Below, one piece after another: positions 1,440 through 15,473 of a DNA stretch of 64,000 nt. The translations under genes and the position numbers were made by a program. This DNA comes from an uncultured Candidatus Saccharibacteria bacterium (GTDB lineage Bacteria > Patescibacteriota > Saccharimonadia > Saccharimonadales > Saccharimonadaceae), in NCBI GenBank assembly GCA_964428955.1, contig CAYSAD010000001.1:19561-83560 (forward strand). The letters run 5' to 3'. The number at the start of each line of letters is the position of its first letter. The stretch's first letter is position 1. The notes below the pieces were generated by a model. It was not told the origin of the DNA. It saw nothing but the letters and a program-made list of their open reading frames with translations, and searched no databases.

Positions 1440-2966
1440 ATGAATAGTGATGACTACAAGTTAAAAATTGGAAAGTTAATCCAAGAAGCCCGACTAACGC
1501 GAAGCATGACTCAGACAGATCTAGCAGTGAAGCTGGCCACCTCGCAAAGTGCCATCAATCGGATTGAAAAAGGTGGTCAGAACATAAGCTTGGAGATGCT
1601 GGCCCGTATCAGCGAGGTGCTTTCGACCAACATCATCACTCTGAATCACAGTGGTACGACTAACTTCAAAGTTCATGGTGGACGGGAACTCTCTGGCGAG
1701 ATCGAAGTCAAAACCAGCAAGAACGCTGCGGTTGGTTTGCTTTGTGCCAGCCTTCTCAATAAAGGCAAAACGACCCTGCGTCGCGTACCACGTATTGAAG
1801 AAGTCAACCGATTAATCGAGGTACTGGGCAGCATCGGTGTCAAAACCCGCTGGATTGGCACAAGCGATCTTGAAATCACCCCCCCGAAACGTCTACAGCT
1901 GGAGAAGATGGATATCACAGCAGCCCGGCGGACTCGTAGTATCATCATGTTCCTGGGACCATTGCTCCATCAATACAAAGAGTTCAAACTTCCTTTTGCT
2001 GGTGGCTGCGACCTTGGTACGCGTACGGTAGAGCCGCACATGTCGGGTTTGACGCCGTTTGGCCTACACGTCGTGGCGACGAACGACTATTATAACGCGA
2101 CGGTTACGCCAAGCGAACCGAATCGGACTATCCTGCTGACGGAACGTGGTGATACGGTTACTGAAAACGTCATCATGGCGGCCGCATTGTACGATGGCAC
2201 GACGATTATCCGCAACGCCAGTCCGAATTACATGGTGCAAGACGTCTGTTTTTTCTTGGAAAAACTCGGTGTTATCATTGACGGCATTGGTACGACTACG
2301 CTCCAGGTTCGCGGTAAGCGATCAATCAATACTGATGTCGACTATGCGCCGAGTGAGGATCCAATCGAAGCTATGAGTTTCGTGGCGGCAGCCATCGTGA
2401 CTAATTCTGAAATTACCATCCGCCGCGTACCAATCGAGTTCATGGAAATCGAACTAGCAGTGCTTGGCAACATGAACCTGGATTACGAACTAGGTAAGGA
2501 ATACGTGGCGCGCAACGGTCATACTCGCCTGGTAGACGTGACGGTGAAAAAATCAAAGCTGATAGCCGCCAAAGACAAGTTGCACAGTATGCCCTTCCCT
2601 GGCGTCAATATGGACAACTTGCCTTTCCTCGGTCTGGTCGCTACGATGGCTAAAGGCCGCAGTCTGTTGCACGACTGGAGTTACGAGAACCGGGCGATTT
2701 ATTTCACCGAACTCACCAAACTGAACGCTCGAATCGAACTCGTCGACCCACACCGCGTTTACATTTCCGGACCAACCAAATGGAAACACGCCGATGTCGT
2801 GGCACCACCAGCCTTACGACCGTCCGTCGTGGTACTCCTAGCTATGTTGGCCGCACCAGGTAGCTCAATGTTGCGCGATGTTTATTCCATCAACCGCGGT
2901 TACGAAGACTTTGCCAATCGCCTGAATTCAATCGGTGCAGATATCGAAACCGTCCAGGAAATCTAG
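1440..2966 (+). CDS. murA: UDP-N-acetylglucosamine 1-carboxyvinyltransferase with an N-terminal XRE-type HTH domain
   Basis: 508 aa. Residues 1-65 (IQEARLTRSMTQTDLAVKLATSQSAINRIEKGGQNISLEMLARI) look like HTH_3. The rest aligns by eye to E. coli MurA, including the Cys115-loop equivalent FAGGCDLGTRTVEPH and the C-terminal INRGYEDF. Confidence 0.9.
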   Translation: MNSDDYKLKIGKLIQEARLTRSMTQTDLAVKLATSQSAINRIEKGGQNISLEMLARISEVLSTNIITLNHSGTTNFKVHGGRELSGEIEVKTSKNAAVGLLCASLLNKGKTTLRRVPRIEEVNRLIEVLGSIGVKTRWIGTSDLEITPPKRLQLEKMDITAARRTRSIIMFLGPLLHQYKEFKLPFAGGCDLGTRTVEPHMSGLTPFGLHVVATNDYYNATVTPSEPNRTILLTERGDTVTENVIMAAALYDGTTIIRNASPNYMVQDVCFFLEKLGVIIDGIGTTTLQVRGKRSINTDVDYAPSEDPIEAMSFVAAAIVTNSEITIRRVPIEFMEIELAVLGNMNLDYELGKEYVARNGHTRLVDVTVKKSKLIAAKDKLHSMPFPGVNMDNLPFLGLVATMAKGRSLLHDWSYENRAIYFTELTKLNARIELVDPHRVYISGPTKWKHADVVAPPALRPSVVVLLAMLAAPGSSMLRDVYSINRGYEDFANRLNSIGADIETVQEI

Positions 2967-3789: not shown

Positions 3790-4389
3790 TCAGTCGTCGG
3801 GTAGCAGGTTATTGCCCTGGACAATGAGCTTGCCGAAACCGCCGAGGATGAGCCTGGCAGTAAGGTCGTCCTCAATCTCGCTGAGGGCGCTGACCGCACC
3901 CGCCAAGATGAGATCGCCCATCTGCACGAATGCCGCACCACCCCAGGGAAAGTCACCCCACGGGAAAGTGCCCACTTCATTCTGTGAATCGACTTTGTCA
4001 CGGAAGTATTCCGGAAAGTCGAACCGTAATTCGAGTGTGCTATCGCAGCCCATCGAGCCATAGCCCGCTATGACCTCATGAGGACGTAGCAGCGCTCGCA
4101 TCTTGCGAATGGCGTTGGCGATATAGCGATCGCGGTCCGGACCCCAGCCGCCAACGAACCAGACGAATTCCTCAGGCTTATCCCAGAGCTCAGCATCGAA
4201 ATCATCGTTCGGTTCTGCCATAGCAAAACCAAAGCTTTCGTTGGCCTTGACCAGACCGCTTGCTGCGAGCACCTGTACGGTGTCGTAGTAGCTGTCGAGA
4301 AACTTATTCAGGTTGATTTCGGAACCATCGTCACAGACATACGTCTGCTCGAACGGCATGGTGCTCACGTCCAGCAATCGGACAGTCAT
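3790..4389 (-). CDS. Hypothetical protein (orphan, visibly GC-richer than its neighbours)
   Basis: 199-aa ORF. ATG preceded by AAAGGAGAC. No TM segment and no family recognised. Bracketed by tRNA-Gly and tRNA-Arg. Confidence 0.7.
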   Translation of the reverse strand: MTVRLLDVSTMPFEQTYVCDDGSEINLNKFLDSYYDTVQVLAASGLVKANESFGFAMAEPNDDFDAELWDKPEEFVWFVGGWGPDRDRYIANAIRKMRALLRPHEVIAGYGSMGCDSTLELRFDFPEYFRDKVDSQNEVGTFPWGDFPWGGAAFVQMGDLILAGAVSALSEIEDDLTARLILGGFGKLIVQGNNLLPDD

Positions 4390-4504
4390 GATGTCTCCTT
4401 TAGGTGCTCGTGTCGTGTACTTGAGTTTTCCACGAAAATGACTTGCTTATTATACATTTTTATTGTACTAATGTCAATAATACAAAGGGAGCTTTGCCCA
4501 TCTC

Positions 4505-4513
4505 TGTTATAAT
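4505..4513 (+). promoter_or_regulatory. Extended -10 (TGtTATAAT) 9 nt upstream of the mature tRNA-Arg 5' end
   Basis: TG at 4505-4506, TATAAT at 4508-4513, tRNA starts at 4523. Confidence 0.45.
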
Positions 4514-4522
4514 ACCAGTTAT

Positions 4523-4599
4523 GCCCCGGTAGCTCAGTTGGATAGAGCAGAGGACTTCTAAGCCTAAGGTCGCTGGTTCGAACCCAGCCCGGGGTACCA
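4523..4599 (+). tRNA. tRNA-Arg (TCT)
   Basis: Cloverleaf with anticodon loop CTTCTAA and D-arm GCTCAGTTGGATAGAGC as in E. coli tRNA-Arg(UCU). G1-U72 wobble, encoded CCA. Confidence 0.92.
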
Positions 4600-4661
4600 A
4601 AAATGAATAATTCTAACAAGCTGTGTCATACTAATGCTTAGAACTTAAACAAAGGAATTTT

Positions 4662-4946
4662 ATGCTTGCGGCGCTCCTCATCATTCACATCATCTGTTTA
4701 TCAATTTCAATACTCGCTACCGGCGCGCTGATGGTAGCCGCGTTATTGACTCGTAAAATCGCGCCGCAATTATCTCAAGCGACACTCGCTGTTACGTCCG
4801 TCGGCGTCCTGGCCGGTGCTATGTTGTTGCTTCAAGCCCCACTTGGTTTACATTGCCTGATGCTTAGCAGCTACGTGATTATTTTTAGCCTAGCGTATCG
4901 CTTCATCACCAAACGATCATTAATCGCTTATAGTCTTTCCCGATAA
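4662..4946 (+). CDS. Small integral membrane protein, hypothetical
   Basis: 94 aa with about 3 hydrophobic helices. AAGGA SD 6 nt upstream of the ATG. Confidence 0.55.
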   Translation: MLAALLIIHIICLSISILATGALMVAALLTRKIAPQLSQATLAVTSVGVLAGAMLLLQAPLGLHCLMLSSYVIIFSLAYRFITKRSLIAYSLSR

Positions 4947-4948
4947 AT

Positions 4949-7420
4949 TTAGACTTGAGGCGTTGTTTGCTCAATGTTTGCATCGGCAGCGATTTTATCC
5001 GCCTCAACTACCGAGCCAAGAATTGCCTCTACTTGTTCTTTACTGATCTCCACGGTACTACCTGCACCAGCCGTACCTTCGAGCATTTGCTTGGCAACGG
5101 TATTTTCGACCGCCCGCTGCACGACTCGGCGCATCGGCCGGGCGCCGAGTCTCGGATCATAACCTTTGTCTACTAGCAGTAATTTGGCATCGTCGCTGAC
5201 TGTAACGGTGACTTTCTGGTTGGCCAGGGTTTTATTGACGCCCGCCAAAATTAGATCGATGACTTGCAGTAATTCCGGCTTACCAAGCGGTGTAAAGGTA
5301 ATGATTTCATCAAAACGGTTCAAAAATTCCGGTCGGAACTGGCCGCTCGAAATCAACTCGTCGGTAAATTGCTGCTCGAATTGCTCCAGTTTGTAACCGC
5401 GCTCAATGTACTCGCGAATACGTTCTGCCCCGGCGTTGCTGGTAGCAATCACGATGGCGTCACGGAAACTGACGTCGCGGTTCTTTTCATCGCGCAGAAT
5501 ACCTTCATCGAGTAATTGCAACAATGTCGTTAAAACACTCGGGTGAGCTTTTTCAATCTCATCCAGCAGTACGACACTGAACGGCTGTTTCATCATCCGC
5601 GCTGTCAGACTGCTCGGGTCGTTCGCGCCATCCGCGATAAGCCGGGCTACATCCTCGCTACGGACGAATTCATTTAAGTCCAGTCGCACCATCCGATCTT
5701 CACCACCAAAGTAGACGTCCGCCAAGGCCTTGGCAAGCTCAGTCTTACCGACACCGGTCGGACCGAGGAACAGAAATGTACCGATTGGCCGATTCTGATT
5801 ACGTACACCAGCCCGCGCTCGGCGCAATGCATCACTAACGACTTGCACGGCCCTGGTTTGATTTATCATTCGTTCGTGAATCAACGATTCCAGATTCAAC
5901 AGTGTGGTTTTCTCTTGTTCGCCACTAGCAACACCAACTTTAATGTCCATCGTCTGCTCAATCGCCTGTTGAACTGAATTCATCGTGACGAGTCCATTTT
6001 CGCTATAACTGGCAGCTGATTCCAGCAGCTTTAAGGCCCGGCCCGGCATTGCTAAATCGTGAACATAACGCTCACTCAAATTGTAGGCTTCACCCAATGC
6101 CTGGTAGGTGTAGGTCACTTTGCGGTGAAATTCCGTCAGTATTAGTTGGTCTTGCATGACGGCAACAGTTTCGTCACGCGATGCCGGGGCAATAGAAATA
6201 CGGTTAAGTGCGTTTACTAACGCGCCGTTACGCTGCGAAATCTGCAAGAAGCGTTGTTCATCCATAGTTAAGATCATGCGCAAATTACCAGCCTCTAAAA
6301 TCGGCAGCAACACATTGGTTAAGTCGACCGATCCGACGGCTTCTTCGAAGAATAACTCAGCATTATCCAGACAAATGATGATGTTCTTTGCGCTATAGGC
6401 CTCGCCGAGTACCTGCATAACCAGCTGCTCCAATTCCCCACGACCAGGTGCAGCCGCAATGAGCGACGAAGCATCAAGCATAATGACTTGACGAAACTGT
6501 AAATTTACCGGCAGTTTATTTTTAGCATCGAGTAACTTCTCGGCAAAAGCGTGAACGATAGTCGTTTTACCAACGCCAGCTGGTCCAACGAGGGCTGCGT
6601 TCTGCCGACCACCACTTGTAAATGTATCGATCAGTTGAGTGAGGGCTGTGACATGGGCTTCCAAATCCACTGCCAGCATACCACCATGCCGCATTTGTTC
6701 GCTGATATTCTGACCAAAGCGCGCCAATAGCGGAATATAGCCAAACGAGAAATCACGAGCGATGCCACCGGTCATACGCGGCCCGGTATGCGCGTCAATC
6801 AATTTTCGAAGATGGTCTTGCCAACGGATACCGGTTTCAATATCACTGACGTCAAGATGCAACTGTGCGAGTAAGTTTTCATAACCAGCAAAACCCTGGA
6901 CTAGCGCGAGTACCATGACGCCAGCTGTCATTTCAGACAACTCCAGTCGCTCCATAATATCAGCCGATCGCTGCCATAGCTTTTCTGTATCGGCCGCCTG
7001 GTCTGAAGCGATGTCTTGCAAAAAATTGGCCGTCAATCCAAACCGGACGGCAAAAAATTGGCCGCCGAAACTACGTCCGATCGCGGCCGCGACATCTTTT
7101 GGCGTTGGATTCGCACCAAGCTGGGCTATGATATCAGCCGCCAGAACATCATTTACCGACGCTGGGTTCTTATTCGGTGCTAGCCGCTTCAATTCACCCG
7201 TATACCATAGACTGAACATAGCTGGTAAGCTTGCTAGACTCATCACGAACCAACCAATTGACAGTTGACTGATAATCAATCCGATGCCACCAATTACCAG
7301 CAACCAGGTCGTTAATTTTAGGATTACATGAAGCGCCCCGCCAAACGTGACGGCCATGCGCGCCTTTTGCACTCGTTCGTGATGCGGATTAAATATTAGT
7401 TCCATACGATTGGTGTCCAA
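4949..7420 (-). CDS. Membrane-anchored double-AAA+ ATPase of the Clp/Hsp100 family (atypical)
   Basis: Two Walker A motifs (GPAGVGKTT, GPTGVGKTELAKALA). D2 Walker B is VVLLDEIEKAHP, with GARPMRR sensor-2. Two N-terminal hydrophobic helices. The ORF-track start 7420 is TTG; the first ATG is at 7405. Confidence 0.9.
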   Translation of the reverse strand: MDTNRMELIFNPHHERVQKARMAVTFGGALHVILKLTTWLLVIGGIGLIISQLSIGWFVMSLASLPAMFSLWYTGELKRLAPNKNPASVNDVLAADIIAQLGANPTPKDVAAAIGRSFGGQFFAVRFGLTANFLQDIASDQAADTEKLWQRSADIMERLELSEMTAGVMVLALVQGFAGYENLLAQLHLDVSDIETGIRWQDHLRKLIDAHTGPRMTGGIARDFSFGYIPLLARFGQNISEQMRHGGMLAVDLEAHVTALTQLIDTFTSGGRQNAALVGPAGVGKTTIVHAFAEKLLDAKNKLPVNLQFRQVIMLDASSLIAAAPGRGELEQLVMQVLGEAYSAKNIIICLDNAELFFEEAVGSVDLTNVLLPILEAGNLRMILTMDEQRFLQISQRNGALVNALNRISIAPASRDETVAVMQDQLILTEFHRKVTYTYQALGEAYNLSERYVHDLAMPGRALKLLESAASYSENGLVTMNSVQQAIEQTMDIKVGVASGEQEKTTLLNLESLIHERMINQTRAVQVVSDALRRARAGVRNQNRPIGTFLFLGPTGVGKTELAKALADVYFGGEDRMVRLDLNEFVRSEDVARLIADGANDPSSLTARMMKQPFSVVLLDEIEKAHPSVLTTLLQLLDEGILRDEKNRDVSFRDAIVIATSNAGAERIREYIERGYKLEQFEQQFTDELISSGQFRPEFLNRFDEIITFTPLGKPELLQVIDLILAGVNKTLANQKVTVTVSDDAKLLLVDKGYDPRLGARPMRRVVQRAVENTVAKQMLEGTAGAGSTVEISKEQVEAILGSVVEADKIAADANIEQTTPQV

Positions 7421-7782
7421 CCACTAATGAACAACAAAAAACCAACGATCGGCAAGATTGGCACAAGTGGCCAGACAAGCAGACATAAACCACCCACTAT
7501 GACGTACCCAAGTAGCGCAATTGAACCAATTATAATGATGATCAGGCGCACGAATGCTCCGATTACTCGAGAAACCATACGGTCGACGAATGCTCGCCAC
7601 TTTACGCCAAGCGGTCCACTTACTTTTCCGGCCGAGATTTGCCGGAATGGCGCGAACAATGTCGATATCAATTGTTCGATTGAAAAATAATCAACTGCCC
7701 GAGCGATCCGCTGTCGAATCTGCCCCACTTGACGGCGCCAGCCAATACCATACCACCACGAGAGCATACCCACGATAAACAT
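7396..7782 (-). CDS. Small membrane protein co-oriented with and overlapping the AAA+ gene
   Basis: The ORF-track start 7860 is TTG. ATG 7782 (MFIVGMLSWWYG...) has TACAAT 6 nt upstream. Three or four hydrophobic helices. Its 3' end overlaps the downstream AAA+ start. Confidence 0.6.
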   Translation of the reverse strand: MFIVGMLSWWYGIGWRRQVGQIRQRIARAVDYFSIEQLISTLFAPFRQISAGKVSGPLGVKWRAFVDRMVSRVIGAFVRLIIIIIGSIALLGYVIVGGLCLLVWPLVPILPIVGFLLFISGWTPIVWN

Positions 7783-7788
7783 GACCTT

Positions 7789-7794
7789 ATTGTA
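7789..7794 (-). promoter_or_regulatory. -10 hexamer TACAAT 6 nt upstream of ATG 7782 (leaderless-type)
   Basis: Plus-strand ATTGTA at 7789-7794. Spacer AAGGTC. Confidence 0.4.
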
Positions 7795-7851
7795 CGATAT
7801 TCTCTCTGGTTTCGATAGAGGCGCAATCATCAAACAAACCAGGTATAATGA

Positions 7852-9138
7852 ATGTATCAACTTATGCCAAAACCATACACGACAATTTTAGGAAAAACAG
7901 TTCGCTCTATCGCCCGCCTACGCGGTGGTGGCTCGGCTTTGCCTGGCTTGTTCGTTGAAAAAATCGATAGTTCATTCGTGCCCGACACACTGGCGCAATT
8001 GCCCCATGGCATCGTCATCGTTAGTGGTACCAATGGTAAAACCACTACTACTAAAATGATTGTCGAACTACTTGAAAGTCAAGGCCTCAGCGTATTCACT
8101 AACCGAACCGGTAGTAACTTCATCCGCGGTATCGCGGCAGCACTGCTCGGTGAAGTGAACGGTAAAGGTAAGCTCGATAAAGACATCGCCGTTTTGGAGC
8201 TTGACGAGGCTCACGCCGTACACTTCGTTAAAGTCGTTAAGCCACGCTACAGTTTACTATTGAACGTGATGCGCGACCAGCTCGACCGCTTCGGCGAAAT
8301 TGATACAACCGCAAAAATGCTGAAAATCATAGCCGAGGCTACCAGTCAGGGTGTAGTAATTAACCGTGAAGACCCACGTCTGATGCTTGTCGGCAAATCG
8401 CTCAAAAATGTCGCCGTCAGTTACTTTGGGCTCGAGCAAGACGTACGGTCTCATTTTCCAAACGATGATGATATGCGTCAAACATCAACCAAACAACCAA
8501 CTTCCATACCAGCAGCTGATGTAACGCTGGCTTCTTTCAACGAGACGACCGCTACGTTCCAAATCGGTGGAAAGTCATATGACACCCCACTACTACTGCG
8601 CGGTGCATACAATATCTATAATGCTGCTGCTGCTCTGACGTTAGTACGTGACATTCTTGGTGACAAAACTGACACCAAAAAAATGCTGTCAGCCCTTTCG
8701 ATGGTCACACCAGCATTTGGTCGCGGCGAGACACTGATGCTCGGCGGCTTCCCATTAGAACTGATATTGGTAAAAAATCCAGCTGGTTTTCGACTTAGTC
8801 TATCGTCATTCTCACCCAAAGGATATGCTACTATGATCGCCATCAACGACAATTACGCCGACGGCCGTGATATGAGTTGGCTATGGGATGTCGACTTTAA
8901 CAGTCTGCAGCTGGGTGGCGTAGCCGAGGTTGGCGGTACACGTGCCTATGATATGGCGCTGCGACTACAGTACGATGAAGTTGAAATAGTCCATGTCGAG
9001 ACGAACCTAAAAACGGCTCTGCGTCATTTCATCACCATGCGCGCCAACCAGCCGAAGCGGATTTATTGTACCTATACTTCCATGCTTGCGCTTAGGCATG
9101 AGCTAGCTAAAATCACTGAAGTCGAGGTCGTATCGTGA
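7852..9138 (+). CDS. murT: Mur-ligase-family lipid II isoglutaminyl synthase subunit MurT
   Basis: 428 aa. ATP-binding GTNGKTTTTKM, and the N-terminus aligns by eye with S. aureus MurT. GTGA-coupled to gatD. The start is ambiguous (ATG 7852 or ATG 7864) because TATAAT sits at 7844-7849. Confidence 0.85.
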   Translation: MYQLMPKPYTTILGKTVRSIARLRGGGSALPGLFVEKIDSSFVPDTLAQLPHGIVIVSGTNGKTTTTKMIVELLESQGLSVFTNRTGSNFIRGIAAALLGEVNGKGKLDKDIAVLELDEAHAVHFVKVVKPRYSLLLNVMRDQLDRFGEIDTTAKMLKIIAEATSQGVVINREDPRLMLVGKSLKNVAVSYFGLEQDVRSHFPNDDDMRQTSTKQPTSIPAADVTLASFNETTATFQIGGKSYDTPLLLRGAYNIYNAAAALTLVRDILGDKTDTKKMLSALSMVTPAFGRGETLMLGGFPLELILVKNPAGFRLSLSSFSPKGYATMIAINDNYADGRDMSWLWDVDFNSLQLGGVAEVGGTRAYDMALRLQYDEVEIVHVETNLKTALRHFITMRANQPKRIYCTYTSMLALRHELAKITEVEVVS

Positions 9139-9854
9139 GCAAAGAAATCACTATCATGCAACTGTACCCTCGTGATATGAACATTTACGGTGACTGGGGC
9201 AACGTGCTAACAATTATGCGGCGGCTGGAGTGGCATGGTTATACTCCCAAGCTGATCGAATACAATCAGGGTAATACCTTTCCGGCCGATGTTGATATCG
9301 TGATTGGCGGCGGCGGCCAAGACTCCGGACAAACCGTCGTTCAAGACGATCTACTTGTTATAAAAGATGACTTGTTGAGCTTGGCAAAAAGCGGCACGCC
9401 AATGTTGGTTATCTGTGGCCTTTATCAGTTGTTCGGCCGTTTCTTCAAAACCGTTGATGGCGAAATGATCGCAGGTATCGGGTTATTTGATATGGAAACT
9501 CGTGGCGGCCGCGAGCGCCTGATTGGTAATATCGTGACAACAAGTGACGAGTTTGGCGAGATTATCGGTTATGAGAACCATAGCGGCCAAACATTCCTCG
9601 GTAAGAACGTTACGCCACTTGGCCATGTTCAAAAAGGTGCCGGTAATAATGGCGAAGATACCAGCGAGGGTGCGCGGATTCATAATGTCATTGGTAGTTA
9701 TCTGCACGGTTCACTTTTACCAAAAAATCCGGCTATCGCTGATTTTCTGATCGAAACAGCCGTCACGAGAAAATACGGTGAGTTCGCACCGAACATCATT
9801 GACGATTACTTTGCCCGCGAAGCTCGCAAGATCGCCACTAAACGACCGCGCTAG
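9135..9854 (+). CDS. gatD: Glutamine amidotransferase GatD (CobQ/CobB-type GATase partner of MurT)
   Basis: 239 aa. GTG start overlaps the murT TGA. The N-terminus ITIMQLYPRDMNIYGD matches S. aureus GatD LTIYHFMSDKLNLYSD. Has the nucleophile context VICGLYQLFG and a late YLHGSLLPKNP. Confidence 0.85.
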   Translation: MSKEITIMQLYPRDMNIYGDWGNVLTIMRRLEWHGYTPKLIEYNQGNTFPADVDIVIGGGGQDSGQTVVQDDLLVIKDDLLSLAKSGTPMLVICGLYQLFGRFFKTVDGEMIAGIGLFDMETRGGRERLIGNIVTTSDEFGEIIGYENHSGQTFLGKNVTPLGHVQKGAGNNGEDTSEGARIHNVIGSYLHGSLLPKNPAIADFLIETAVTRKYGEFAPNIIDDYFAREARKIATKRPR

Positions 9855-10321
9855 CTTTGGTAACCGTCTTGTTGTTTCTTCAGCTCACTAATCACTTGTT
9901 GGCCGTGGCCAAGTGGCGTCACGCGACCGAAGACTTTTACGACGACGCCATCGGGATTGATAATGAATGTCTTCCTAAGGATGCCTTCTTTACCAAACTG
10001 CTTCTTTCCCCACGCGCCATATGCTTCAATCGTCTTACCTGTACCGTCGACAAGTAATGTGAAATTAAGCGAATGCTTGGCTTTGAATTTCTCATGGCTA
10101 GATGCTGGATCTTTACTGACACCAATAATTTCCGCACCAAGCTGAGCTAAATCATCGCGCGCATCACGCAAACTGCAAGCTTCAATCGTACAACCAGGCG
10201 AATCGTCTTTCGGATAAAAGTAAAGGACAACCCATTTGCCATTGTAGTCCTTCAGTGTGTGTAGCTTACCTGTGTCATCTGTTAAACTAAACTGCGGTGC
10301 GAGATATGGTGGTTGTTTCAT
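9851..10321 (-). CDS. bcp: Thioredoxin-dependent thiol peroxidase (Bcp-type peroxiredoxin)
   Basis: YFYPKDDSPGCTIEACSLRD active-site motif. The ORF-track start 10351 is TTG. ATG 10321 (MKQPPYLAPQF) has TATAAT 6 nt upstream. Confidence 0.9.
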   Translation of the reverse strand: MKQPPYLAPQFSLTDDTGKLHTLKDYNGKWVVLYFYPKDDSPGCTIEACSLRDARDDLAQLGAEIIGVSKDPASSHEKFKAKHSLNFTLLVDGTGKTIEAYGAWGKKQFGKEGILRKTFIINPDGVVVKVFGRVTPLGHGQQVISELKKQQDGYQS

Positions 10322-10327
10322 ATTCTT

Positions 10328-10333
10328 ATTATA
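10328..10333 (-). promoter_or_regulatory. -10 TATAAT 6 nt upstream of the bcp ATG (leaderless-type)
   Basis: Plus-strand ATTATA at 10328-10333. Back-to-back with the divergent promoter at 10369-10374. Confidence 0.45.
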
Positions 10334-10368
10334 CCGCGCAACAGCCGACAAATGCCAGAAAGCTGCTG

Positions 10369-10374
10369 TATAAT
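10369..10374 (+). promoter_or_regulatory. -10 TATAAT 8 nt upstream of ATG 10383 (leaderless-type)
   Basis: TATAAT at 10369-10374. Spacer AAAAGCTA, no SD. Confidence 0.45.
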
Positions 10375-10382
10375 AAAAGCTA

Positions 10383-11495
10383 ATGTCTGCAAAAAAACTG
10401 TCGTCTCGTATATTGGCGCTTGATCTAATGCGTGGTTATTTTTTGGTCATCATTATTCTTGACCACCTGTTTTGGTACCCGAATGGGCTGGATTGGGTCA
10501 GTGGTCGTGGTGAGTTGTTCGTTAGTGCAGCCGAAGGATTCTTCCTAATTTCTGGCATCGTACTCGGCATCGTGCGCGGGCAAAAACTCATCAATAAGCC
10601 ATTTGCTGTCGGTGCGAAGCTCCTCCTCAAACGAAGTGTACAGCTTTATATCACCAGTGTCGTCCTCATGCTAATTTTCACCCTGCTCGGCTGGTGGTTC
10701 TTCATGAATAATCCTGGTCTAAAACCTGGTATTCGACCACCAAGTGAGGGCTTCTGGAGCGTATTTATCGGCGCACTCGATTATAAATACATTTATGGCT
10801 GGGCAGATTTCCTGAGACTATACGCAATATTCATTTTCGTCAGCCCGTTGGTCCTGTGGTTGCTACGGCGCGGCTGGTGGTATATTGTACTTGGCTTGAG
10901 CGTCGGAACCTATCTACTACTGCCATTTGCTCAAGCTCATACTACGTATACTGACGAATTATTGATGCCGATTACCTGGCAATTGATATTCTTCGGCGGT
11001 TTCGTGATTGGTTTTCACGAGCAACGTATTCGTCGTTTCTGGCAATCATTATCCCATAGATTCCGTCGCATTTTTATGCGAACCGTGTTCGTATTAACCA
11101 CTATCACTCTTGGATTTAATATGATCCTGGCATTTGGTAGTGACCTCTCAAGCAGACTGGGTGCCATCGAAGCCGCTCTTGACCCCTTCTTCATAAAAGA
11201 GACTCTACCACCCGCCCGTATCGCTTTGTTCGCATTGTGGTTCGTAGCTGGTTTTTGGCTTTTTCATCATTATCGTGAGGTTATCAACCGTCGACTCGGT
11301 TGGATATTGTTGCCGTTCGGCATGAACTCACTGTACGTGTATACGATTCATGCCTTCGTGATCTTCTTTGTCCACATGGTCATGCTCAATGCCAGTCCAA
11401 ATATTCTCATCAATATCGTCGGAACACTGCTCGTGCTTGGAATCATTCTACTAGCGGTACGAACCAAGTTCCTGATGAAGATTATTCCACGTTAA
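10383..11495 (+). CDS. OpgC / acyltransferase-3-like polytopic membrane protein
   Basis: 370 aa, about 10 TM helices. The N-terminal LDLMRGYFLVIIILDHL is typical of the OpgC/DUF1624-type acyltransferase superfamily. Confidence 0.55.
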   Translation: MSAKKLSSRILALDLMRGYFLVIIILDHLFWYPNGLDWVSGRGELFVSAAEGFFLISGIVLGIVRGQKLINKPFAVGAKLLLKRSVQLYITSVVLMLIFTLLGWWFFMNNPGLKPGIRPPSEGFWSVFIGALDYKYIYGWADFLRLYAIFIFVSPLVLWLLRRGWWYIVLGLSVGTYLLLPFAQAHTTYTDELLMPITWQLIFFGGFVIGFHEQRIRRFWQSLSHRFRRIFMRTVFVLTTITLGFNMILAFGSDLSSRLGAIEAALDPFFIKETLPPARIALFALWFVAGFWLFHHYREVINRRLGWILLPFGMNSLYVYTIHAFVIFFVHMVMLNASPNILINIVGTLLVLGIILLAVRTKFLMKIIPR

Positions 11496-13005
11496 GGGCG
11501 TATAGACTAAGAATTTGTTTATCATAGGTAGTAGTCCGAACTAGATGATAATCCGAAGGTGGCGTGAATAATTGCGACTGGCCAGCCCAATGGATAACGT
11601 AGACTGTTTTGTCACGAATGGCCGTAGGGCTATCGACTCGTTTTTCACTCGTAGAAAGTGGTGCGTAACCACCCTGCATTGCAATAGGATCTGGACTAAA
11701 AAAACGTAAATCGCAATCAGTAAAATAATAGGCATTATCGATATACGTATAAGCGTCGTCGGCGACAATCACCGTCTTGTCATCGCAATGTACGTCATGT
11801 CGTAATTCAGCCGAACGTGGTTGTTGCATGCGTTCAAAATTAAAGTTACCAGTACGGTAGAGATTAGTGACGCCGATTGCCATGACGATAACAAGCAACC
11901 CGCCCAGCAGCATCGCTTGCTTCTTTAGTCCATACCGCCAGCCAATCGCCGGTATGCTAGCTAGCCCGATATAAATGAACGGTACAGTGTGGGCCATGTA
12001 ACGCATAATGAACATCGGCTCTTGCTGGATGATGGAAAGGATTGCGTAAAACAGTTGAGGCACGGTAGCCAGGGCCGCCAAGAACAGCAAACATCGGCGC
12101 ACATCACGCCCTGCTCGAACGTAGCTCACCGCGAAAATGTAACCAACCAGGGATAACACGAGTACGATCGTCAACGACACCATGCCACTCAGTTGCCACT
12201 GTGGTGTATAGAAAAATATAAAACCGGTCATAGTAGCCAATTGTGTCAGTGTGATTTCCCCACCAATTCCCGGTAGGGCCGAGTGTGTCAGCTGGTGGAA
12301 AAAGGTTGGCATATACGGGACAAATAAAACGATTGCCAGAATATAACTTCGTAGCCATGGGCTACGAAAAATTTCTTTTTGTTTCTTTTGTTTCAAGTCA
12401 CTAATCGCTAACCAAACAACGTGCGCGATCCAAATCGCGACGCTCATGTAGAGCGTATACATACCGAGCGCAACGAGTACGGCATACGTAATCCAATACT
12501 TTTTTCCGCCACGTTGCCGAGCATAAACTAAAAACAGGGTTGCTAGTACACCGATAAATCCAACTAGTGCGTACATACGGATTTCATAGCCATAACGCAA
12601 AAGAAATGGGCTCAGTACTAATAACGGCACGCTCCAGATGGCGATGCGGCTACTAAATAATTTCCGAATGAGTAAGAAACTTACCCCGATCGTCCCAACC
12701 GCAAACAGAGCGCTCAAGCTACGCAGTGCAAACTCGCTCCAACCAAATACCCCAGCCCAAACTTTGAGTAGAAGATAGTAAAATGGTGGATGCGCATCGA
12801 CCGCCGTCAACGACAGCAAATCATGGACTGGTGATTTCGCCACAATGATCGTGTAGCCTTCGTCAAACCAAACCGATTGACCGTGTGCGAGCACCATGAT
12901 GATACCGTACGTTACCAAACCCAAAGCTAGCACGATAGACAGAACCATCCACCGGTTTTTAATCAGCGCTCTTTTTTCGGTCGATCGTTTGGAAATATGT
13001 GACAT
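11482..13005 (-). CDS. GT-C fold glycosyltransferase (ArnT/PMT family 39-like)
   Basis: Polytopic membrane protein with WFDEGYT (DE motif) in the first loop. The ORF-track start 13038 is TTG; the first ATG is at 13005. Confidence 0.65.
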   Translation of the reverse strand: MSHISKRSTEKRALIKNRWMVLSIVLALGLVTYGIIMVLAHGQSVWFDEGYTIIVAKSPVHDLLSLTAVDAHPPFYYLLLKVWAGVFGWSEFALRSLSALFAVGTIGVSFLLIRKLFSSRIAIWSVPLLVLSPFLLRYGYEIRMYALVGFIGVLATLFLVYARQRGGKKYWITYAVLVALGMYTLYMSVAIWIAHVVWLAISDLKQKKQKEIFRSPWLRSYILAIVLFVPYMPTFFHQLTHSALPGIGGEITLTQLATMTGFIFFYTPQWQLSGMVSLTIVLVLSLVGYIFAVSYVRAGRDVRRCLLFLAALATVPQLFYAILSIIQQEPMFIMRYMAHTVPFIYIGLASIPAIGWRYGLKKQAMLLGGLLVIVMAIGVTNLYRTGNFNFERMQQPRSAELRHDVHCDDKTVIVADDAYTYIDNAYYFTDCDLRFFSPDPIAMQGGYAPLSTSEKRVDSPTAIRDKTVYVIHWAGQSQLFTPPSDYHLVRTTTYDKQILSLYALNVE

Positions 13006-13094
13006 AGTTTCTTTAGTTATACAGGATAGTTGCGGCAAATGCCACTGGTGTTACGACCAGATATGCGCTATAATTTGTCAAGGAAAACACCTAT

Positions 13095-13528: not shown

Positions 13529-13978
13529 ATGTCGTCATTTCATCTAGAACCAATGGCCGTCTCGGCAACGCTTCATTGTTTGACCGGCTGCGCCATTGGT
13601 GAAATCATCGGTATGGTTGTCGGAACTGCATTTAATCTTCATAATGTTGTCACTATCATCTTAGCAATCGTACTGGCGTTCATATTTGGCTACGGCCTAT
13701 CAATTCGATCAGTCGTACGTCATGGGATCAGCCTAAGGCGCGCTTTGAAACTCGTACTGGCAGCCGATACCTTGTCTATCGCGACGATGGAATTAGTTGA
13801 TAACGGTGTTGTAGCGCTCATTCCGAACGCGCTTAATGCCACGCTTGGCGACTGGCTGTTTTGGCTTAGCTTAGCACTGTCACTAGTAGCGGCATTCATC
13901 GCCGCCTATCCGGTGAATAATTACCTGCTGTCGCGCGGTAAGGGCCACGCCTTACTGCACGAACACCACCATCACTAG
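13529..13978 (+). CDS. DUF4396-like membrane protein with a C-terminal His-rich tail
   Basis: 149 aa. LHCLTGCAIGEIIGM in the first TM helix (as I recall for DUF4396). Ends HEHHHH. Confidence 0.55.
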   Translation: MSSFHLEPMAVSATLHCLTGCAIGEIIGMVVGTAFNLHNVVTIILAIVLAFIFGYGLSIRSVVRHGISLRRALKLVLAADTLSIATMELVDNGVVALIPNALNATLGDWLFWLSLALSLVAAFIAAYPVNNYLLSRGKGHALLHEHHHH

Positions 13979-13982
13979 GAAA

Positions 13983-15473
13983 TTATTTGGCGAATTCGAT
14001 AGCGCGAGTTTCACGAATAACATTTACTTTTATCGTACCTGGATACTGCATGGTACTTTCGACTTTGTTGGCGATATCACGCGCCAACTTGATAGCCGAC
14101 AGGTCATCAACCGACTTGTTATTCACCATGATGCGAACCTCGCGACCAGCGCTGATAGCGTAGGCCTTATCGATACCATTAAAGCTGAGGGCAATATTTT
14201 CCAGATCACGCATGCGTTCAGCAAAGTTTTCAGCGCTGATATTACGCGCGCCCGGCCGAGCAGCCGATAGTGCGTCACAAACACGCACGATCAAAGCTTC
14301 TGGCGTCGTGGCTTCGACGTCGTCATGGTGGGCTTCGATGGCGTGAACGATTTCTTTGCTCATACCATACTTACGCGCCAGTTCGGCACCGATGTGATGA
14401 TGCTTACCCTCGATCTTATGTGTGACGGCTTTACCGATATCATGCAACAGTGTAGCGGTTTTAGTAATCCGCACGTCGGCACCAATTTCCTCTGCGATCA
14501 GTCCAGCCATGTGAGCCATTTCGGTACTGTGCAATAGTACGTTCTGACCGTAGCTAGTACGAAATTTTAATTCGCCAAGCAGCTGGATCAATTCTTTCGG
14601 AATACCGACGACGCCGACATCGCGGGCGGCATCTTCACCGGCGCGAATAACCTCTTTCTCGATCTGTTTCTCACTTTTCGCTACGACTTCTTCGATTCGA
14701 CCTGGGTGAATCCGACCATCTTTCATCAGCGCTTCCAGTGTCAAACGTGCGACTTGGCGGCGAATCGGATCGAAACTCGAGAGCACGACCATACCTGGCG
14801 TGTCGTCCACTAAGATATCAACACCAGTGGCACGTTGCAGCGCCTGGATGTTACGGCCTTCTTTGCCGATGATACGGCCTTTCATTTCATCGTCAGTCAA
14901 TTTGATAGCCGTCACGGTCCGCTCGGCAGTTACTTCCGAGCTCATACGTTCCATGGCTGTTACCAAAATAGTCTGGGCATTTTCTTCAGCTTCATCGACA
15001 GCTTCTTTTTGCAATTTTACGACTAAGTCAACCATATCCTGCTTGATGTCGCGTTCGGTCATCTGCATCAGTTTTTCGGCCGCATCAGACTTGCTGAGTT
15101 TGGCGATCTTTTCTAACTTCTCTTGTTGACGAGAGCGGATTTCGCGGATTTCGGATTTCAATTCATCGACTTCACCCTCTTGTGTGCGTAATTTCTCAGT
15201 CCGCTTGTCGAGGTCATCTAATTTTCTATCGAGATTGGTATCGCGATCAGCTAGTCGGTCTTCCATCTTCTTGATTTCTTTGCGTCGTTCATTTTCAAGC
15301 TCGACGGCTTCGTCTTTAGCCTTCAGTACAATGTCACTGGCTTTTTGTTTGGCTGCCGTCAGGGCTTTTTCGGCTTTCTGCTTACCGCTGGCGGTCTGGC
15401 CACGTGAATACGCAACTGTCCCACCCACGCCGAAAATAGCGCCCGCTAAGATGGCGATTATTGTTTCTATCAT
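13983..15473 (-). CDS. rny: Ribonuclease Y
   Basis: 496 aa: N-terminal TM helix, long charged coiled coil, KH domain (GKEGRNIQALQRATGVDILVDD) and HD domain (LLHDIGKA...HH). Confidence 0.93.
   Translation of the reverse strand: MIETIIAILAGAIFGVGGTVAYSRGQTASGKQKAEKALTAAKQKASDIVLKAKDEAVELENERRKEIKKMEDRLADRDTNLDRKLDDLDKRTEKLRTQEGEVDELKSEIREIRSRQQEKLEKIAKLSKSDAAEKLMQMTERDIKQDMVDLVVKLQKEAVDEAEENAQTILVTAMERMSSEVTAERTVTAIKLTDDEMKGRIIGKEGRNIQALQRATGVDILVDDTPGMVVLSSFDPIRRQVARLTLEALMKDGRIHPGRIEEVVAKSEKQIEKEVIRAGEDAARDVGVVGIPKELIQLLGELKFRTSYGQNVLLHSTEMAHMAGLIAEEIGADVRITKTATLLHDIGKAVTHKIEGKHHHIGAELARKYGMSKEIVHAIEAHHDDVEATTPEALIVRVCDALSAARPGARNISAENFAERMRDLENIALSFNGIDKAYAISAGREVRIMVNNKSVDDLSAIKLARDIANKVESTMQYPGTIKVNVIRETRAIEFAK

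What the first reader, a model, noticed from the sequence alone, without database searches (positions are those of the whole stretch)
4949..7420. Membrane-anchored Clp/Hsp100-like double AAA+ with a dead D1 and no pore-loop tyrosines
The two-ring architecture is clear (GPAGVGKTT and GPTGVGKTELAKALA), but several hallmarks are altered, as follows. (1) The N-terminus has two hydrophobic helices (WLLVIGGIGLIISQL, WFVMSLASLPAMFSLW), so the protein is probably membrane-tethered. (2) D1 Walker B is IICLDNAE instead of hhhhDE, and the ERRF Arg-finger position reads NALN. (3) The D1 pore-loop KYRGEFE reads PGRGELE. (4) The D2 pore loop GAPPGYVGY is shortened to ADGANDPSS with no aromatic residue. (5) There is no ClpB-type M-domain insertion, and no IGF/IGL ClpP-docking loop after the SNAG motif. 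D2 retains an intact Walker B, Arg finger (RPEFLNRFD) and sensor-2. This does not look like a conventional threading unfoldase.
Basis: partly seen in the sequence, partly recalled or inferred. Interest (0 to 1): 0.7.

Follow-up and report, generated by a model that had tools for sequence, protein, structure and literature searches.

The report
Membrane-anchored Clp-like ATPase with partner
This gene encodes a membrane-tethered relative of the ClpB/ClpC protein-unfolding motors in which one of the two engines is disabled and the usual substrate-gripping tyrosines are missing; it always travels with a tiny membrane-protein partner across the ultra-small Patescibacteria, so it looks like an undescribed membrane machine rather than a standard Clp chaperone.

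Summary
Alignments to ClpC, ClpE and ClpA and counts over 46 to 117 orthologues confirm every altered motif, and each is nearly invariant. D1 keeps Walker A but has Walker B D-N, no Arg fingers and Gly in place of the pore-loop Tyr. D2 is catalytically intact, but its pore loop is 5 residues shorter and acidic (ADGAxDPxS). There is no M-domain and no ClpP-docking tripeptide. An N-in/C-in transmembrane hairpin is supported by hydropathy and the positive-inside rule. Residues 71-207 are a very diverged Clp_N fold.

New findings:
- A 128-aa membrane protein, U1 (7396-7782, minus strand), lies directly upstream in 79/80 Saccharibacteria loci and 9/9 distant loci. It is fused to the ATPase in one lineage.
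- The family spans Patescibacteria (Saccharibacteria, Berkelbacteria). Some Berkelbacteria-type relatives keep the D2 tyrosine, so the Saccharibacteria form looks the most derived.
- Published Tn-seq in Southlakia gives both genes the same late growth defect. That genome also has a canonical ClpC and ClpP.

Most likely this is a ClpP- and Hsp70-independent, D2-driven membrane remodelling ATPase working with U1. The substrate is unknown. It is a new variant of a known kind.

The parts
4949..7405 (-). Gene for the 818-aa membrane-anchored Clp/Hsp100-like double AAA+ ATPase (stop codon 4949-4951; probable ATG start 7403-7405; the mechanical ORF extends to a TTG at 7420).
7337..7405 (-). Cytoplasmic N-tail (res 1-23) with the invariant basic motif R11..A15-R16.
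   Evidence: mean 4.2 K/R
7196..7336 (-). Transmembrane hairpin (res 24-70): TM1 is about 24-46, the loop is 3-4 residues, and TM2 is about 49-70. G51, W52 and W67 are invariant and P61 is nearly so.
   Evidence: (pLDDT 85-92)
6785..7195 (-). Highly diverged Clp_N-like helical N-domain (res 71-207).
   Evidence: All top-50 Foldseek hits are Clp N-domains, with weak E-values of 0.03-0.7. Pfam and a PDB profile search find nothing at sequence level.
6686..6784 (-). Family-signature linker 'TGGIARD(W/F)SFGYIPLLxRFGxNIS' (res 208-240). It is the most conserved block of the N-terminal half and is aromatic-rich. The model has low confidence at 214-220.
   Evidence: conservation 0.89
5936..6685 (-). 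D1 AAA+ module (res 241-490). Walker A is at 6560-6586 (GPAGVGKTT), the pore loop at 6428-6454 (AAPGRGELE), Walker B at 6359-6379 (IICLDNA), and the former Arg-finger site at 6200-6220 (LVNALNR). The lid has four helices and no M-domain insertion.
5036..5890 (-). D2 AAA+ module plus D2-small (res 506-790). Walker A is at 5738-5764, the shortened acidic pore loop at 5600-5638 (IADGANDPSSLTA), Walker B at 5555-5575 (VVLLDEI), sensor-1 at 5429-5443, the ClpB-length spacer without a ClpP tripeptide at 5339-5428, the Arg finger at 5309-5338, and sensor-2 at 5126-5146 (GARPMRR).
7396..7782 (-). Partner gene U1: a 128-aa membrane protein with no Pfam family. It has a conserved cytoplasmic N-half (LSWWYG..., DYFSI..L..TLF.PFRQISAG) and C-terminal TM helices. 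Its stop codon overlaps the ATPase start codon.
7852..9854 (+). Context only: the divergently transcribed murT (7852-9138) and gatD-like gene (9135-9854), about 70 bp from the U1 start. The arrangement is conserved within Saccharibacteria but not in distant clades.

Best explanation
The minus-strand gene 4949-7405 encodes a membrane-anchored member of a Patescibacteria-specific branch of the Clp/Hsp100 double-ring AAA+ ATPases. It works as a two-protein membrane machine with the small membrane protein U1, encoded immediately upstream.

Shown:
- Domain order is N-in TM hairpin, diverged Clp_N domain, signature aromatic linker, D1, D2.
- D1 keeps an invariant Walker A but has lost the Walker B glutamate, both arginine fingers and the pore-loop tyrosine.
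- D2 keeps every catalytic motif, but its pore loop 1 is shortened to an invariant acidic, non-aromatic 'ADGA(D/N)DPxS'.
- There is no M-domain and no ClpP-docking tripeptide.
- U1 is syntenic everywhere examined, translationally coupled, and fused to the ATPase in one lineage.

Inferred:
- D1 is a nucleotide-binding, non-hydrolysing assembly ring, as in Pex1/Pex6 D1 or NSF D2. D2 is the sole motor.
- If the hexamer is Clp-like, the N-terminal anchor places the N-domain/D1 face against the cytoplasmic side of the membrane, beneath a collar of ATPase and U1 TM helices.
- The machine remodels or extracts a specific membrane-associated client, or U1 itself. It would do so by ATP-driven conformational pulling through a polar, acidic pore or through the N-domain and 'GGIARDWSFGY' loops, not by processive aromatic-paddle threading.
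- It acts independently of ClpP and of Hsp70.
- The canonical ClpC-ClpP pair elsewhere in these genomes handles ordinary proteolysis.
For: - Family and fold. AlphaFold gives pLDDT 75, and Foldseek matches ClpC/ClpB protomers with TM 0.74-0.81 and rmsd about 5 A over about 577 columns.
- Motif states and their invariance.
- Purifying selection on D1: conservation 0.86, against 0.94 for D2-large.
- Topology.
- N-domain: all top-50 Foldseek hits are Clp N-domains.
- Family-specific N-domain: only 209 hits among 1.84 billion representative proteins, and every full-length hit is 777-897 aa with the same layout.
- U1 in Saccharibacteria: 79/80 loci have it directly upstream on the same strand, with a gap of -6 to +36 nt in 78 of them and 120 nt in L038.
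- U1 in distant clades: 9/9 loci at 30-39% ATPase identity, including Berkelbacteria, have a U1 homologue, with HMM E-values from 1e-15 to 7e-38.
- Fusion: U1 is fused at the N-terminus of P0375, E 5.9e-16.
- Shared phenotype: Tn-seq in Southlakia epibionticum calls both SEML1_0700 (ATPase) and SEML1_0701 (U1) NE, NE, GD, with falling read counts. The same genome has a canonical ClpC (SEML1_0512) and ClpP (SEML1_0493) (PMC10633639 Table S1/S2).
- Graded loss of the D2 tyrosine across the family.
Against: - No experiment or oligomer model was available, so hexamer formation, the U1 contact and the lack of threading are all inferred.
- Some AAA+ motors grip substrate with non-aromatic residues. 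Some relatives keep GSPAGY in D2 or DE in D1, so the ancestral activity may well be threading and may persist here.
- The invariant R402 could partly replace the lost Arg finger.
- The AlphaFold model has low confidence exactly at the D2 pore loop (593-606) and the signature linker (214-220).
- The Tn-seq phenotype is mild.
- The client is unknown. Gene neighbourhoods give only weak hints, and they differ between clades: murT/gatD in Saccharibacteria, CsoR/ferredoxin/ZIP and YkuD/C39_2 elsewhere.
Confidence: 0.45

Rival explanations
1. It is still a conventional substrate-threading dislocase or unfoldase, a bacterial counterpart of Msp1 or of FtsH without its protease domain. It would pull membrane proteins out of the bilayer through the D1 and D2 pores and release them into the cytosol, with non-aromatic pore residues sufficient for grip.
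For: - The protomer geometry is ClpC/ClpB-like.
- The D2 catalytic machinery is fully intact.
- The N-terminal anchor puts the pore entrance at the membrane, as in FtsH.
- Some relatives in the Berkelbacteria-type clade retain the canonical GSPAGY D2 pore loop, so the family ancestor probably threaded.
Against: - Neither ring has an aromatic pore-loop-1 residue.
- The D2 loop is 5 residues shorter and carries about three acidic residues per subunit. It is invariant in 117 orthologues.
- Across the family the loop is variable and polar, which is unlike a conserved gripping element.
Confidence: 0.25
2. It is an ATP-driven gate or energiser for a channel or transport function formed by U1 and the TM hairpins. 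This would be a Bcs1- or secretion-ATPase-like role rather than protein quality control.
For: - The pairing and fusion with a membrane protein are obligatory.
- The TM hairpin has invariant residues (G51, W52, W67; P61 nearly invariant), more than a passive anchor needs.
- Neighbouring genes are envelope-related in both clades.
Against: - U1 has only two or three TM helices and no detectable similarity to any transporter family.
- TM conservation (0.55) is the lowest of all domains apart from the C-tail.
- No cargo candidate was found.
Confidence: 0.15
3. It is what databases call it: a ClpC-type ATP-binding subunit of the Clp protease that delivers substrates to ClpP.
For: [quoted passage not shown] Saccharibacteria do encode ClpP.
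Against: - There is no [LIVA]-G-[FL] docking tripeptide. The spacer has ClpB length, with R-G-Y where ClpB has R-F-G-E.
- Scores fall far below the NCBIfam ClpA, ClpB and ClpV cut-offs (355 against 993, 399 against 1232, 280 against 885).
- There is no UVR/M-domain.
- A separate canonical ClpC with Clp_N and UVR domains exists in the same genome.
Confidence: 0.04
4. It is a dedicated regulator or chaperone of the lipid II amidation enzymes MurT/GatD, or of cell-wall synthesis more generally.
For: murT-gatD lie divergently about 420 nt from the ATPase start, just beyond U1, in 75/80 Saccharibacteria loci and in Southlakia. L,D-transpeptidase and C39_2 peptidase genes lie nearby in distant clades.
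Against: - The murT adjacency is absent in distant family members, whereas U1 is always present.
- Saccharibacterial genomes are broadly syntenic, so adjacency is weak evidence.
- murT is essential in Tn-seq, whereas the ATPase is not.
Confidence: 0.08
5. It is a decaying, functionless paralogue of ClpC.
For: Several catalytic and pore motifs are lost.
Against: - The ORF is intact in hundreds of genomes.
- The altered motifs are themselves invariant.
- D1 conservation is 0.86 and D2 conservation 0.94.
- Relatives were found in 428 species genomes.
- Tn-seq shows a growth defect.
Confidence: 0.01

Closest known systems
ClpC / ClpE / ClpA (class I Clp unfoldases, ClpP partners)
   Same: - Two AAA+ modules with AAA_2 and ClpB_D2-small.
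- 27-34% identity and a protomer TM-score of 0.74-0.81.
- A Clp_N-like N-domain fold.
- No M-domain, which resembles ClpA.
   Different: - An N-terminal TM hairpin.
- D1 has no catalytic Glu, no Arg fingers and no pore-loop Tyr.
- The D2 pore loop is shortened and non-aromatic.
- No ClpP-docking tripeptide.
- The N-domain is unrecognisable at sequence level.
- An obligatory small membrane partner.
ClpB / Hsp104 disaggregases
   Same: It gives the best NCBIfam score (TIGR03346, 399 bits). The D2 spacer has ClpB length and lacks the ClpP loop. D2 is the main motor.
   Different: It has no coiled-coil M-domain, so no Hsp70 coupling is expected. It has no aromatic pore loops and is membrane-anchored. 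The score is far below the cut-off of 1232.
Pex1/Pex6 and NSF (type II AAA+ with one hydrolysis-dead ring, recruited to membranes)
   Same: One ring binds nucleotide but does not hydrolyse it and serves assembly, while the other is the motor. Both act at a membrane surface together with a membrane partner. This comparison rests on established knowledge; see PMC9265785.
   Different: They belong to a different AAA clade (classical AAA, not Hsp100). They are recruited by separate tail-anchored proteins rather than by their own TM hairpin. Their active ring retains aromatic pore loops.
Torsins (ER-lumenal Clp/Hsp100-D2-like AAA+)
   Same: They are Hsp100-D2-related, membrane-associated, lack aromatic pore-loop residues, and function only with small membrane partners (LAP1/LULL1). 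This rests on established knowledge; see PMC5425593 and PMC4358337.
   Different: Torsins have a single AAA module and lack their own Arg finger, which the partner supplies. Here D2 has its own Arg finger (R691), and U1 shows no AAA-like fold.
FtsH / Msp1 (membrane-anchored AAA+ extractases)
   Same: An N-terminal TM anchor places the pore entrance at the cytoplasmic membrane face.
   Different: They have a single AAA module, aromatic pore loops essential for extraction, and (in FtsH) a fused protease domain. They are not Hsp100-type.

Membership tests
Clp/Hsp100 class I (double AAA+) | Two tandem AAA+ modules, the second of AAA_2 type followed by the ClpB_D2-small domain | tested here: met
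   AAA_2 at 539-701 (E 6e-47), ClpB_D2-small at 707-787 (E 4e-22), and AAA_lid_9 at 410-485. The fold matches ClpC/ClpB.
Clp/Hsp100 class I (double AAA+) | N-terminal double Clp repeat (Clp_N) domain | tested here: inconclusive
   There is no Pfam Clp_N hit even at E<=10 and no profile hit to PDB sequences. All top-50 Foldseek hits of the modelled domain are Clp N-domains, but with weak scores (E 0.03-0.7, TM 0.45-0.55).
Clp/Hsp100 class I (double AAA+) | Catalytically competent D1 (Walker B hhhhDE, Arg fingers ERRF) | tested here: not met
   The sequence reads IICLD-N348 and LVNALNR. N348 occurs in 43/46, and N398 and A399 are invariant or nearly so.
Clp/Hsp100 class I (double AAA+) | Aromatic pore-loop-1 residues (KYRG in D1, GYVG in D2) | tested here: not met
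   D1 reads A-P-G321-R-G. D2 reads A-D-G-A-x-D-P with a 5-residue deletion.
ClpB | Coiled-coil M-domain inserted in the D1 small domain; NCBIfam TIGR03346 cut-off | tested here: not met
   The D1 lid is a plain four-helix bundle at 410-486. ClpC residues 423-491 are unmatched. The score is 399 bits against a cut-off of 1232.
ClpA / ClpC / ClpE (ClpP-coupled) | [LIVA]-G-[FL] ClpP-docking loop after sensor-1; family score cut-offs | tested here: not met
   The 30-residue spacer AERIREYIERGYKLEQFEQQFTDELISSGQ has no such tripeptide. The ClpA model scores 355 against a cut-off of 993.
ClpV / TssH (type VI secretion) | TIGR03345 score cut-off and T6SS gene context | tested here: not met
   The score is 280 bits against a cut-off of 885. 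No T6SS genes occur in the window or in related loci.
FtsH | Single AAA module fused to an M41 zinc protease | tested here: not met
   No peptidase domain was detected, and there are two AAA modules.
Patescibacterial TM-anchored Clp-like ATPase with U1 partner (defined here) | N-terminal TM segment(s), family-specific N-domain, the 'GGI(A/G)RDW..GY' linker, D1 without pore-loop Tyr, and a U1 gene directly upstream or fused | tested here: met

The most novel reading that the evidence does not exclude
U1 plus this ATPase form a previously unrecognised, Patescibacteria-wide membrane machine. In it, an Hsp100 scaffold has been converted from a polypeptide-threading motor into a non-threading, D2-powered remodeller or gate for an envelope-related client. 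That would make it a bacterial counterpart of Torsin/LAP1 or Bcs1-type mechanisms. The family would then record the stepwise loss of pore-loop function, from GSPAGY to polar loops to the shortened acidic loop.
Probability: 0.3. Interest if true: 0.8.

Novelty: new variant of a known kind. Interest (0 to 1): 0.62.

Why it matters
- Hsp100/Clp motors are a standard example of substrate threading by aromatic pore loops. A strongly conserved branch that is membrane-embedded, has one silent ring, lacks the gripping tyrosines and depends on a dedicated small membrane partner would test how far that mechanism can be changed.
- It would also add a membrane-anchored bacterial Hsp100, for which I found no published description.
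- The family is confined to Patescibacteria (CPR), whose cell biology is largely unknown. It is retained in genomes of about 1 Mb or less, and its loss causes a fitness defect in the one genetically tractable species. It therefore probably serves a lineage-specific envelope or membrane function relevant to the epibiotic lifestyle.
- Practically, databases name these proteins 'ClpC' or 'Clp protease ATP-binding subunit', which is probably misleading.

Tried and rejected
- + strand translation of 4949-7420 is full of stop codons, so the gene is on the minus strand.
- A sequence-level search for Clp_N in residues 1-250 found nothing: Pfam at E<=10, and a profile of residues 68-250 against PDB sequences. 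Only the fold comparison was informative.
- Pfam and NCBIfam on U1 and on five distant U1 homologues found no family.
- The promoter and terminator scan of 4300-8100 gave counts no higher than in shuffled sequence.
- The metagenome-contig scan with the far-clade D1 alignment A6 was swamped by the generic Walker-A pattern. It returned only canonical Clp loci L087-L166, at 32-39% identity and lacking the signature linker. It gave no neighbourhood statistics.
- The listing of cluster members gave no organism names for the divergent representatives. Taxonomy of the far clade came instead from names (Berkelbacteria, 'Patescibacteria group') and from assembly GCA_026397235.1.
- Six literature searches found no description of a TM-anchored Hsp100 or of this family. 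Only the Tn-seq tables of PMC10633639 list the orthologue.
- I tested whether the acidic D2 loop co-varies with a basic U1 N-half. The U1 N-half carries about +5 in Saccharibacteria but +1 to +8 in far clades, with no clear trend, so I dropped the idea.
- I considered and rejected the pseudogene and signal-peptide readings.
Full report
**Observation**

The interval 4949-7420 holds one long ORF, but on the minus strand. The + strand frame is full of stop codons.
- The mechanical ORF starts at a TTG at 7420.
- The ATG at 7405 (MELIFNPHH..., 818 aa) is the likely start. It aligns with the N-terminus of 117 orthologues, and it overlaps the TAA stop codon of the upstream gene in the sequence ATGGAACTAA.
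- The window is from a Saccharibacteria (TM7, Patescibacteria) genome. An identical protein and hundreds of orthologues at 69-76% identity carry that label. Flanking genes include SHMT, MurT/GatD, RNase Y, PilB, PBP1 and DnaK.

**What the protein is**

Pfam finds AAA_2 (539-701, E 6e-47), ClpB_D2-small (707-787) and a weak AAA_lid_9 (410-485). D1 is seen only by generic P-loop models. The NCBIfam ClpB, ClpA, ClpK, ClpG and ClpV models all hit, but far below their cut-offs: 399 against 1232, 355 against 993, and 280 against 885.

The best solved relatives are ClpE, ClpC and ClpB, with E about 1e-100. HMMER alignments to ClpE and ClpC place the altered peptides opposite the canonical motifs:

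| Motif | Canonical | This protein |
|---|---|---|
| D1 Walker A | GEPGVGKT | GPAGVGKT |
| D1 pore loop | KYRGEFE | APGRGELE (Tyr replaced by Gly321) |
| D1 Walker B | hhhhDE | ICLDN |
| D1 Arg fingers | ALERRF | ALVNAL |
| D2 pore loop | GAPPGYVG(H/Y) | AD-----GA (5-residue gap, no aromatic) |

- D2 Walker A, Walker B (D615-E616), sensor-1 (N657), the Arg finger (R691) and sensor-2 (GARPMRR) are all intact.
- The ClpC M-domain (about 423-491) has no counterpart, and ClpA aligns in one stretch.
- The spacer between SNAG and FRPEF is 30 residues. By my recollection of the E. coli ClpB sequence, that is the ClpB length. It has no [LIVA]-G-[FL]. An invariant R-G-Y sits where ClpB has R-F-G-E.
- An AlphaFold model (pLDDT 75) superposes on ClpC, ClpC1 and ClpB protomers taken from hexamer structures. 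TM is 0.74-0.81 and rmsd about 5 A over about 577 columns.
- The D1 lid is a plain four-helix bundle.

**Are the deviations real?**

Yes.
- In 46 orthologues, G321 is 45/46, N348 is 43/46 (D in 3, never E), N398 is 46/46 and A399 is 45/46. The D2 loop residues A591, D592, G593, A594, D596, S599, L600 and T601 are all 46/46. The D1 Walker A residues G, G, GKTT are invariant. The same holds in 117 sequences.
- Column conservation is 0.86 for D1 and 0.94 for D2-large, so D1 is under strong purifying selection.
- I therefore read D1 as nucleotide-binding but hydrolysis-deficient. This is an inference from the established roles of the Walker B Glu and the Arg fingers in ClpB and Hsp104.
- An invariant R402 lies three residues after the lost Arg pair. 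I could not assess its reach.

**Membrane anchoring**

Kyte-Doolittle windows above 1.4 occur only within residues 18-66. They resolve into two helices, about 24-46 and 49-70, and AlphaFold models them as helices with pLDDT 85-92.
- Over 117 orthologues, mean K/R counts are 4.2 in the 23-residue N-tail, 0.01 in the inter-helix loop and 3.0 in the 18 residues after TM2.
- That pattern is a textbook N-in/C-in hairpin. It keeps the ATPase in the cytoplasm and is unlike a cleaved signal peptide, given the long basic N-region, the two long helices and the need for cytosolic ATP.

**N-domain and linker**

Residues 71-207 have no sequence similarity to anything in Pfam or the PDB. When the region is modelled alone, all 50 best Foldseek hits are Clp N-domains: ClpC, ClpC1, ClpC2, ClpB, ClpA, Hsp104 and PfHSP101. 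The scores are weak, with E 0.03-0.7 and TM 0.45-0.55. It is therefore a very diverged Clp_N.

Between this domain and D1 lies the most conserved block of the N-terminal half, 'TGGIARD(W/F)SFGYIPLLxRFGxNIS'. Its conservation is 0.89, and the model has low confidence at 214-220. The block persists across the whole family as 'GGIGRDWAYGYTP'.

**The partner gene**

A 128-aa ORF at 7396-7782 on the minus strand encodes a hydrophobic protein, which I call U1, with no Pfam or NCBIfam family.
- A genome-contig scan with family-specific patterns found relatives of the ATPase in 428 species genomes. The best 80 are essentially all labelled Saccharibacteria, Saccharimonadia or generic Patescibacteria; one is labelled Verrucomicrobiia, which is probably a binning error.
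- In 79 of those 80 loci a U1 homologue lies directly upstream on the same strand. The gap is -6 to +36 nt in 78 of them and 120 nt in one. The single exception is a truncated contig.
- U1 has about 1400 homologues; those that carry a name are Saccharibacteria hypothetical proteins.
- In nine loci of distant family members (30-39% ATPase identity), a 99-133-aa U1 homologue again sits 0-130 nt upstream, most within about 10 nt. My U1 HMM scores them at E 1e-15 to 7e-38.
- In P0375 (897 aa), U1 is fused to the N-terminus of the ATPase (residues 6-116, E 5.9e-16).
- Universal synteny, start/stop overlap and a natural fusion together argue strongly that the two proteins form one membrane complex.

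**Family breadth and evolution**

A profile of the N-domain finds only 209 proteins among 1.84 billion representatives. All full-length hits are 777-897 aa with the domain at about 70-250.

A profile of the three most divergent members finds about 800 further proteins. The named ones are 'Candidatus Berkelbacteria' or 'Patescibacteria group bacterium'. Motif tables show the following:
- All 150 sequences examined have N-terminal TM segments.
- None has a D1 pore-loop Tyr.
- D1 Walker B is DN, DD, EN, DG or DH. It is DE in only a few intermediate lineages.
- The Berkelbacteria-type clade keeps one D1 Arg (ALxQRF). About 20 of its sequences also keep the canonical D2 loop GSPAGY.
- Other clades have polar D2 loops (GSNISGEE...).
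- The Saccharibacteria form has the shortest D2 loop, and that loop is acidic.
- The protein in this window is therefore the most derived state of a graded series.

**Independent functional data**

In the Tn-seq tables of Wang et al. 2023 (PMC10633639), Southlakia epibionticum SEML1_0700 is annotated 'AAA family ATPase', and its Pfam coordinates match ours. SEML1_0701 is a 384-bp hypothetical gene, which corresponds to U1.
- The two genes lie next to MurT, GatD, OpgC and GT39, in the same order as in the window.
- Both are called NE, NE, GD at passages P0 to P2. Read counts fall from 4124 to 1638 for the ATPase and from 258 to 51 for U1.
- The same genome has a canonical ClpC with Clp_N and UVR domains (SEML1_0512) and a ClpP (SEML1_0493), both non-essential.
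- Our protein is therefore an additional, specialised Hsp100 paralogue.
- I infer orthology from synteny and domain coordinates. I did not have the SEML1 sequence.

**Mechanism (commitment)**

The most likely reading (about 0.45) is a hexameric, membrane-apposed Hsp100.
- D1 is a static, nucleotide-bound assembly ring, and D2 is the only motor.
- It works with U1 independently of ClpP and Hsp70.
- It remodels or extracts a membrane-associated client by pulling through a polar, acidic pore or through the N-domain and aromatic-linker ring, rather than by classical aromatic-paddle threading.

Rival readings, with probabilities:
- Conventional threading dislocase: 0.25.
- Gate or energiser of a U1-based channel: 0.15.
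- MurT/GatD or cell-wall regulator: 0.08.
- ClpP partner: 0.04.
- Decaying paralogue: 0.01.

Shown: the anatomy, motif states, conservation, topology, partner linkage, family range and Tn-seq phenotype. Inferred: oligomeric state, the U1 contact, D1 inactivity, absence of threading, and the client.

**Comparison and novelty**

- It is a member of the Clp/Hsp100 class I superfamily by fold and by D2. It fails the defining tests for ClpB, ClpA/C/E and ClpV.
- Functionally it resembles Pex1/Pex6 or NSF (one silent ring, action at a membrane), Torsin with LAP1 (Hsp100-D2-like, no aromatic loops, small membrane partner) and FtsH or Msp1 (N-terminal anchor).
- Six literature searches found no description of such a family. 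Databases call it ClpC or 'AAA family ATPase'.
- I rate it a new variant of a known kind, with interest about 0.6.

Noticed in passing
window 1440-2966 (+): A 508-aa ORF fuses an HTH_3 DNA-binding domain (res 14-64) to a full EPSP_synthase/MurA-type enolpyruvyl-transferase fold (res 79-495). This is an unusual fusion of a regulator and an enzyme.
   Followed up: no
window 4386-4619 (-): A 77-aa ORF has no Pfam family. Copies occur in 35 of 80 Saccharibacteria loci, most at 60-92% identity, at variable distance and orientation downstream of the ATPase gene. It is a highly conserved small protein of unknown function.
   Followed up: partly
window 7783-7851, with murT 7852-9138 (+) and the gatD-like gene 9135-9854 (+): Only about 70 bp separate the U1 start from the divergently transcribed murT. 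murT and gatD overlap by 4 nt. The head-to-head arrangement is kept in 75/80 Saccharibacteria loci and in Southlakia, but not in distant clades. This suggests a shared divergent control region.
   Followed up: partly
L082, L084, L085, L167, L168, L170 (far-clade loci): In Berkelbacteria-type genomes, the U1-ATPase pair is preceded on the same strand by a CsoR/RcnR-type metal or stress repressor (PF02583). Five of the six also have a small ferredoxin upstream, and three have a ZIP transporter. Downstream there is a YkuD L,D-transpeptidase and a CAP-domain protein in four loci and/or a Peptidase_C39_2 gene in three. This may be a stress-regulated envelope operon.
   Followed up: partly
L086 7583-8122: In one distant locus, a Peptidase_M54 (archaemetzincin-like) gene directly follows the ATPase gene on the same strand. 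Together with the C39_2 cases, this raises the possibility of a non-ClpP peptidase partner in some lineages.
   Followed up: no
window 13529-13978 (+): A DUF4396 membrane protein (E 8e-41) lies beside RNase Y (13983-15473, minus strand). Its function is unknown.
   Followed up: no
window 9851-13038: A peroxiredoxin (AhpC/TSA), an OpgC-type acyltransferase and a GT39/PMT_2 glycosyltransferase follow murT-gatD. The OpgC and GT39 genes occur in the same order in Southlakia as SEML1_0704-0705. This is a conserved envelope-modification block.
   Followed up: no
L005 (DATJIC010000036.1): A contig labelled 'Verrucomicrobiia bacterium' carries a typical Saccharibacteria U1-ATPase-MurT locus at 63% identity. 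It is probably a binning or labelling error in the public MAG.
   Followed up: no
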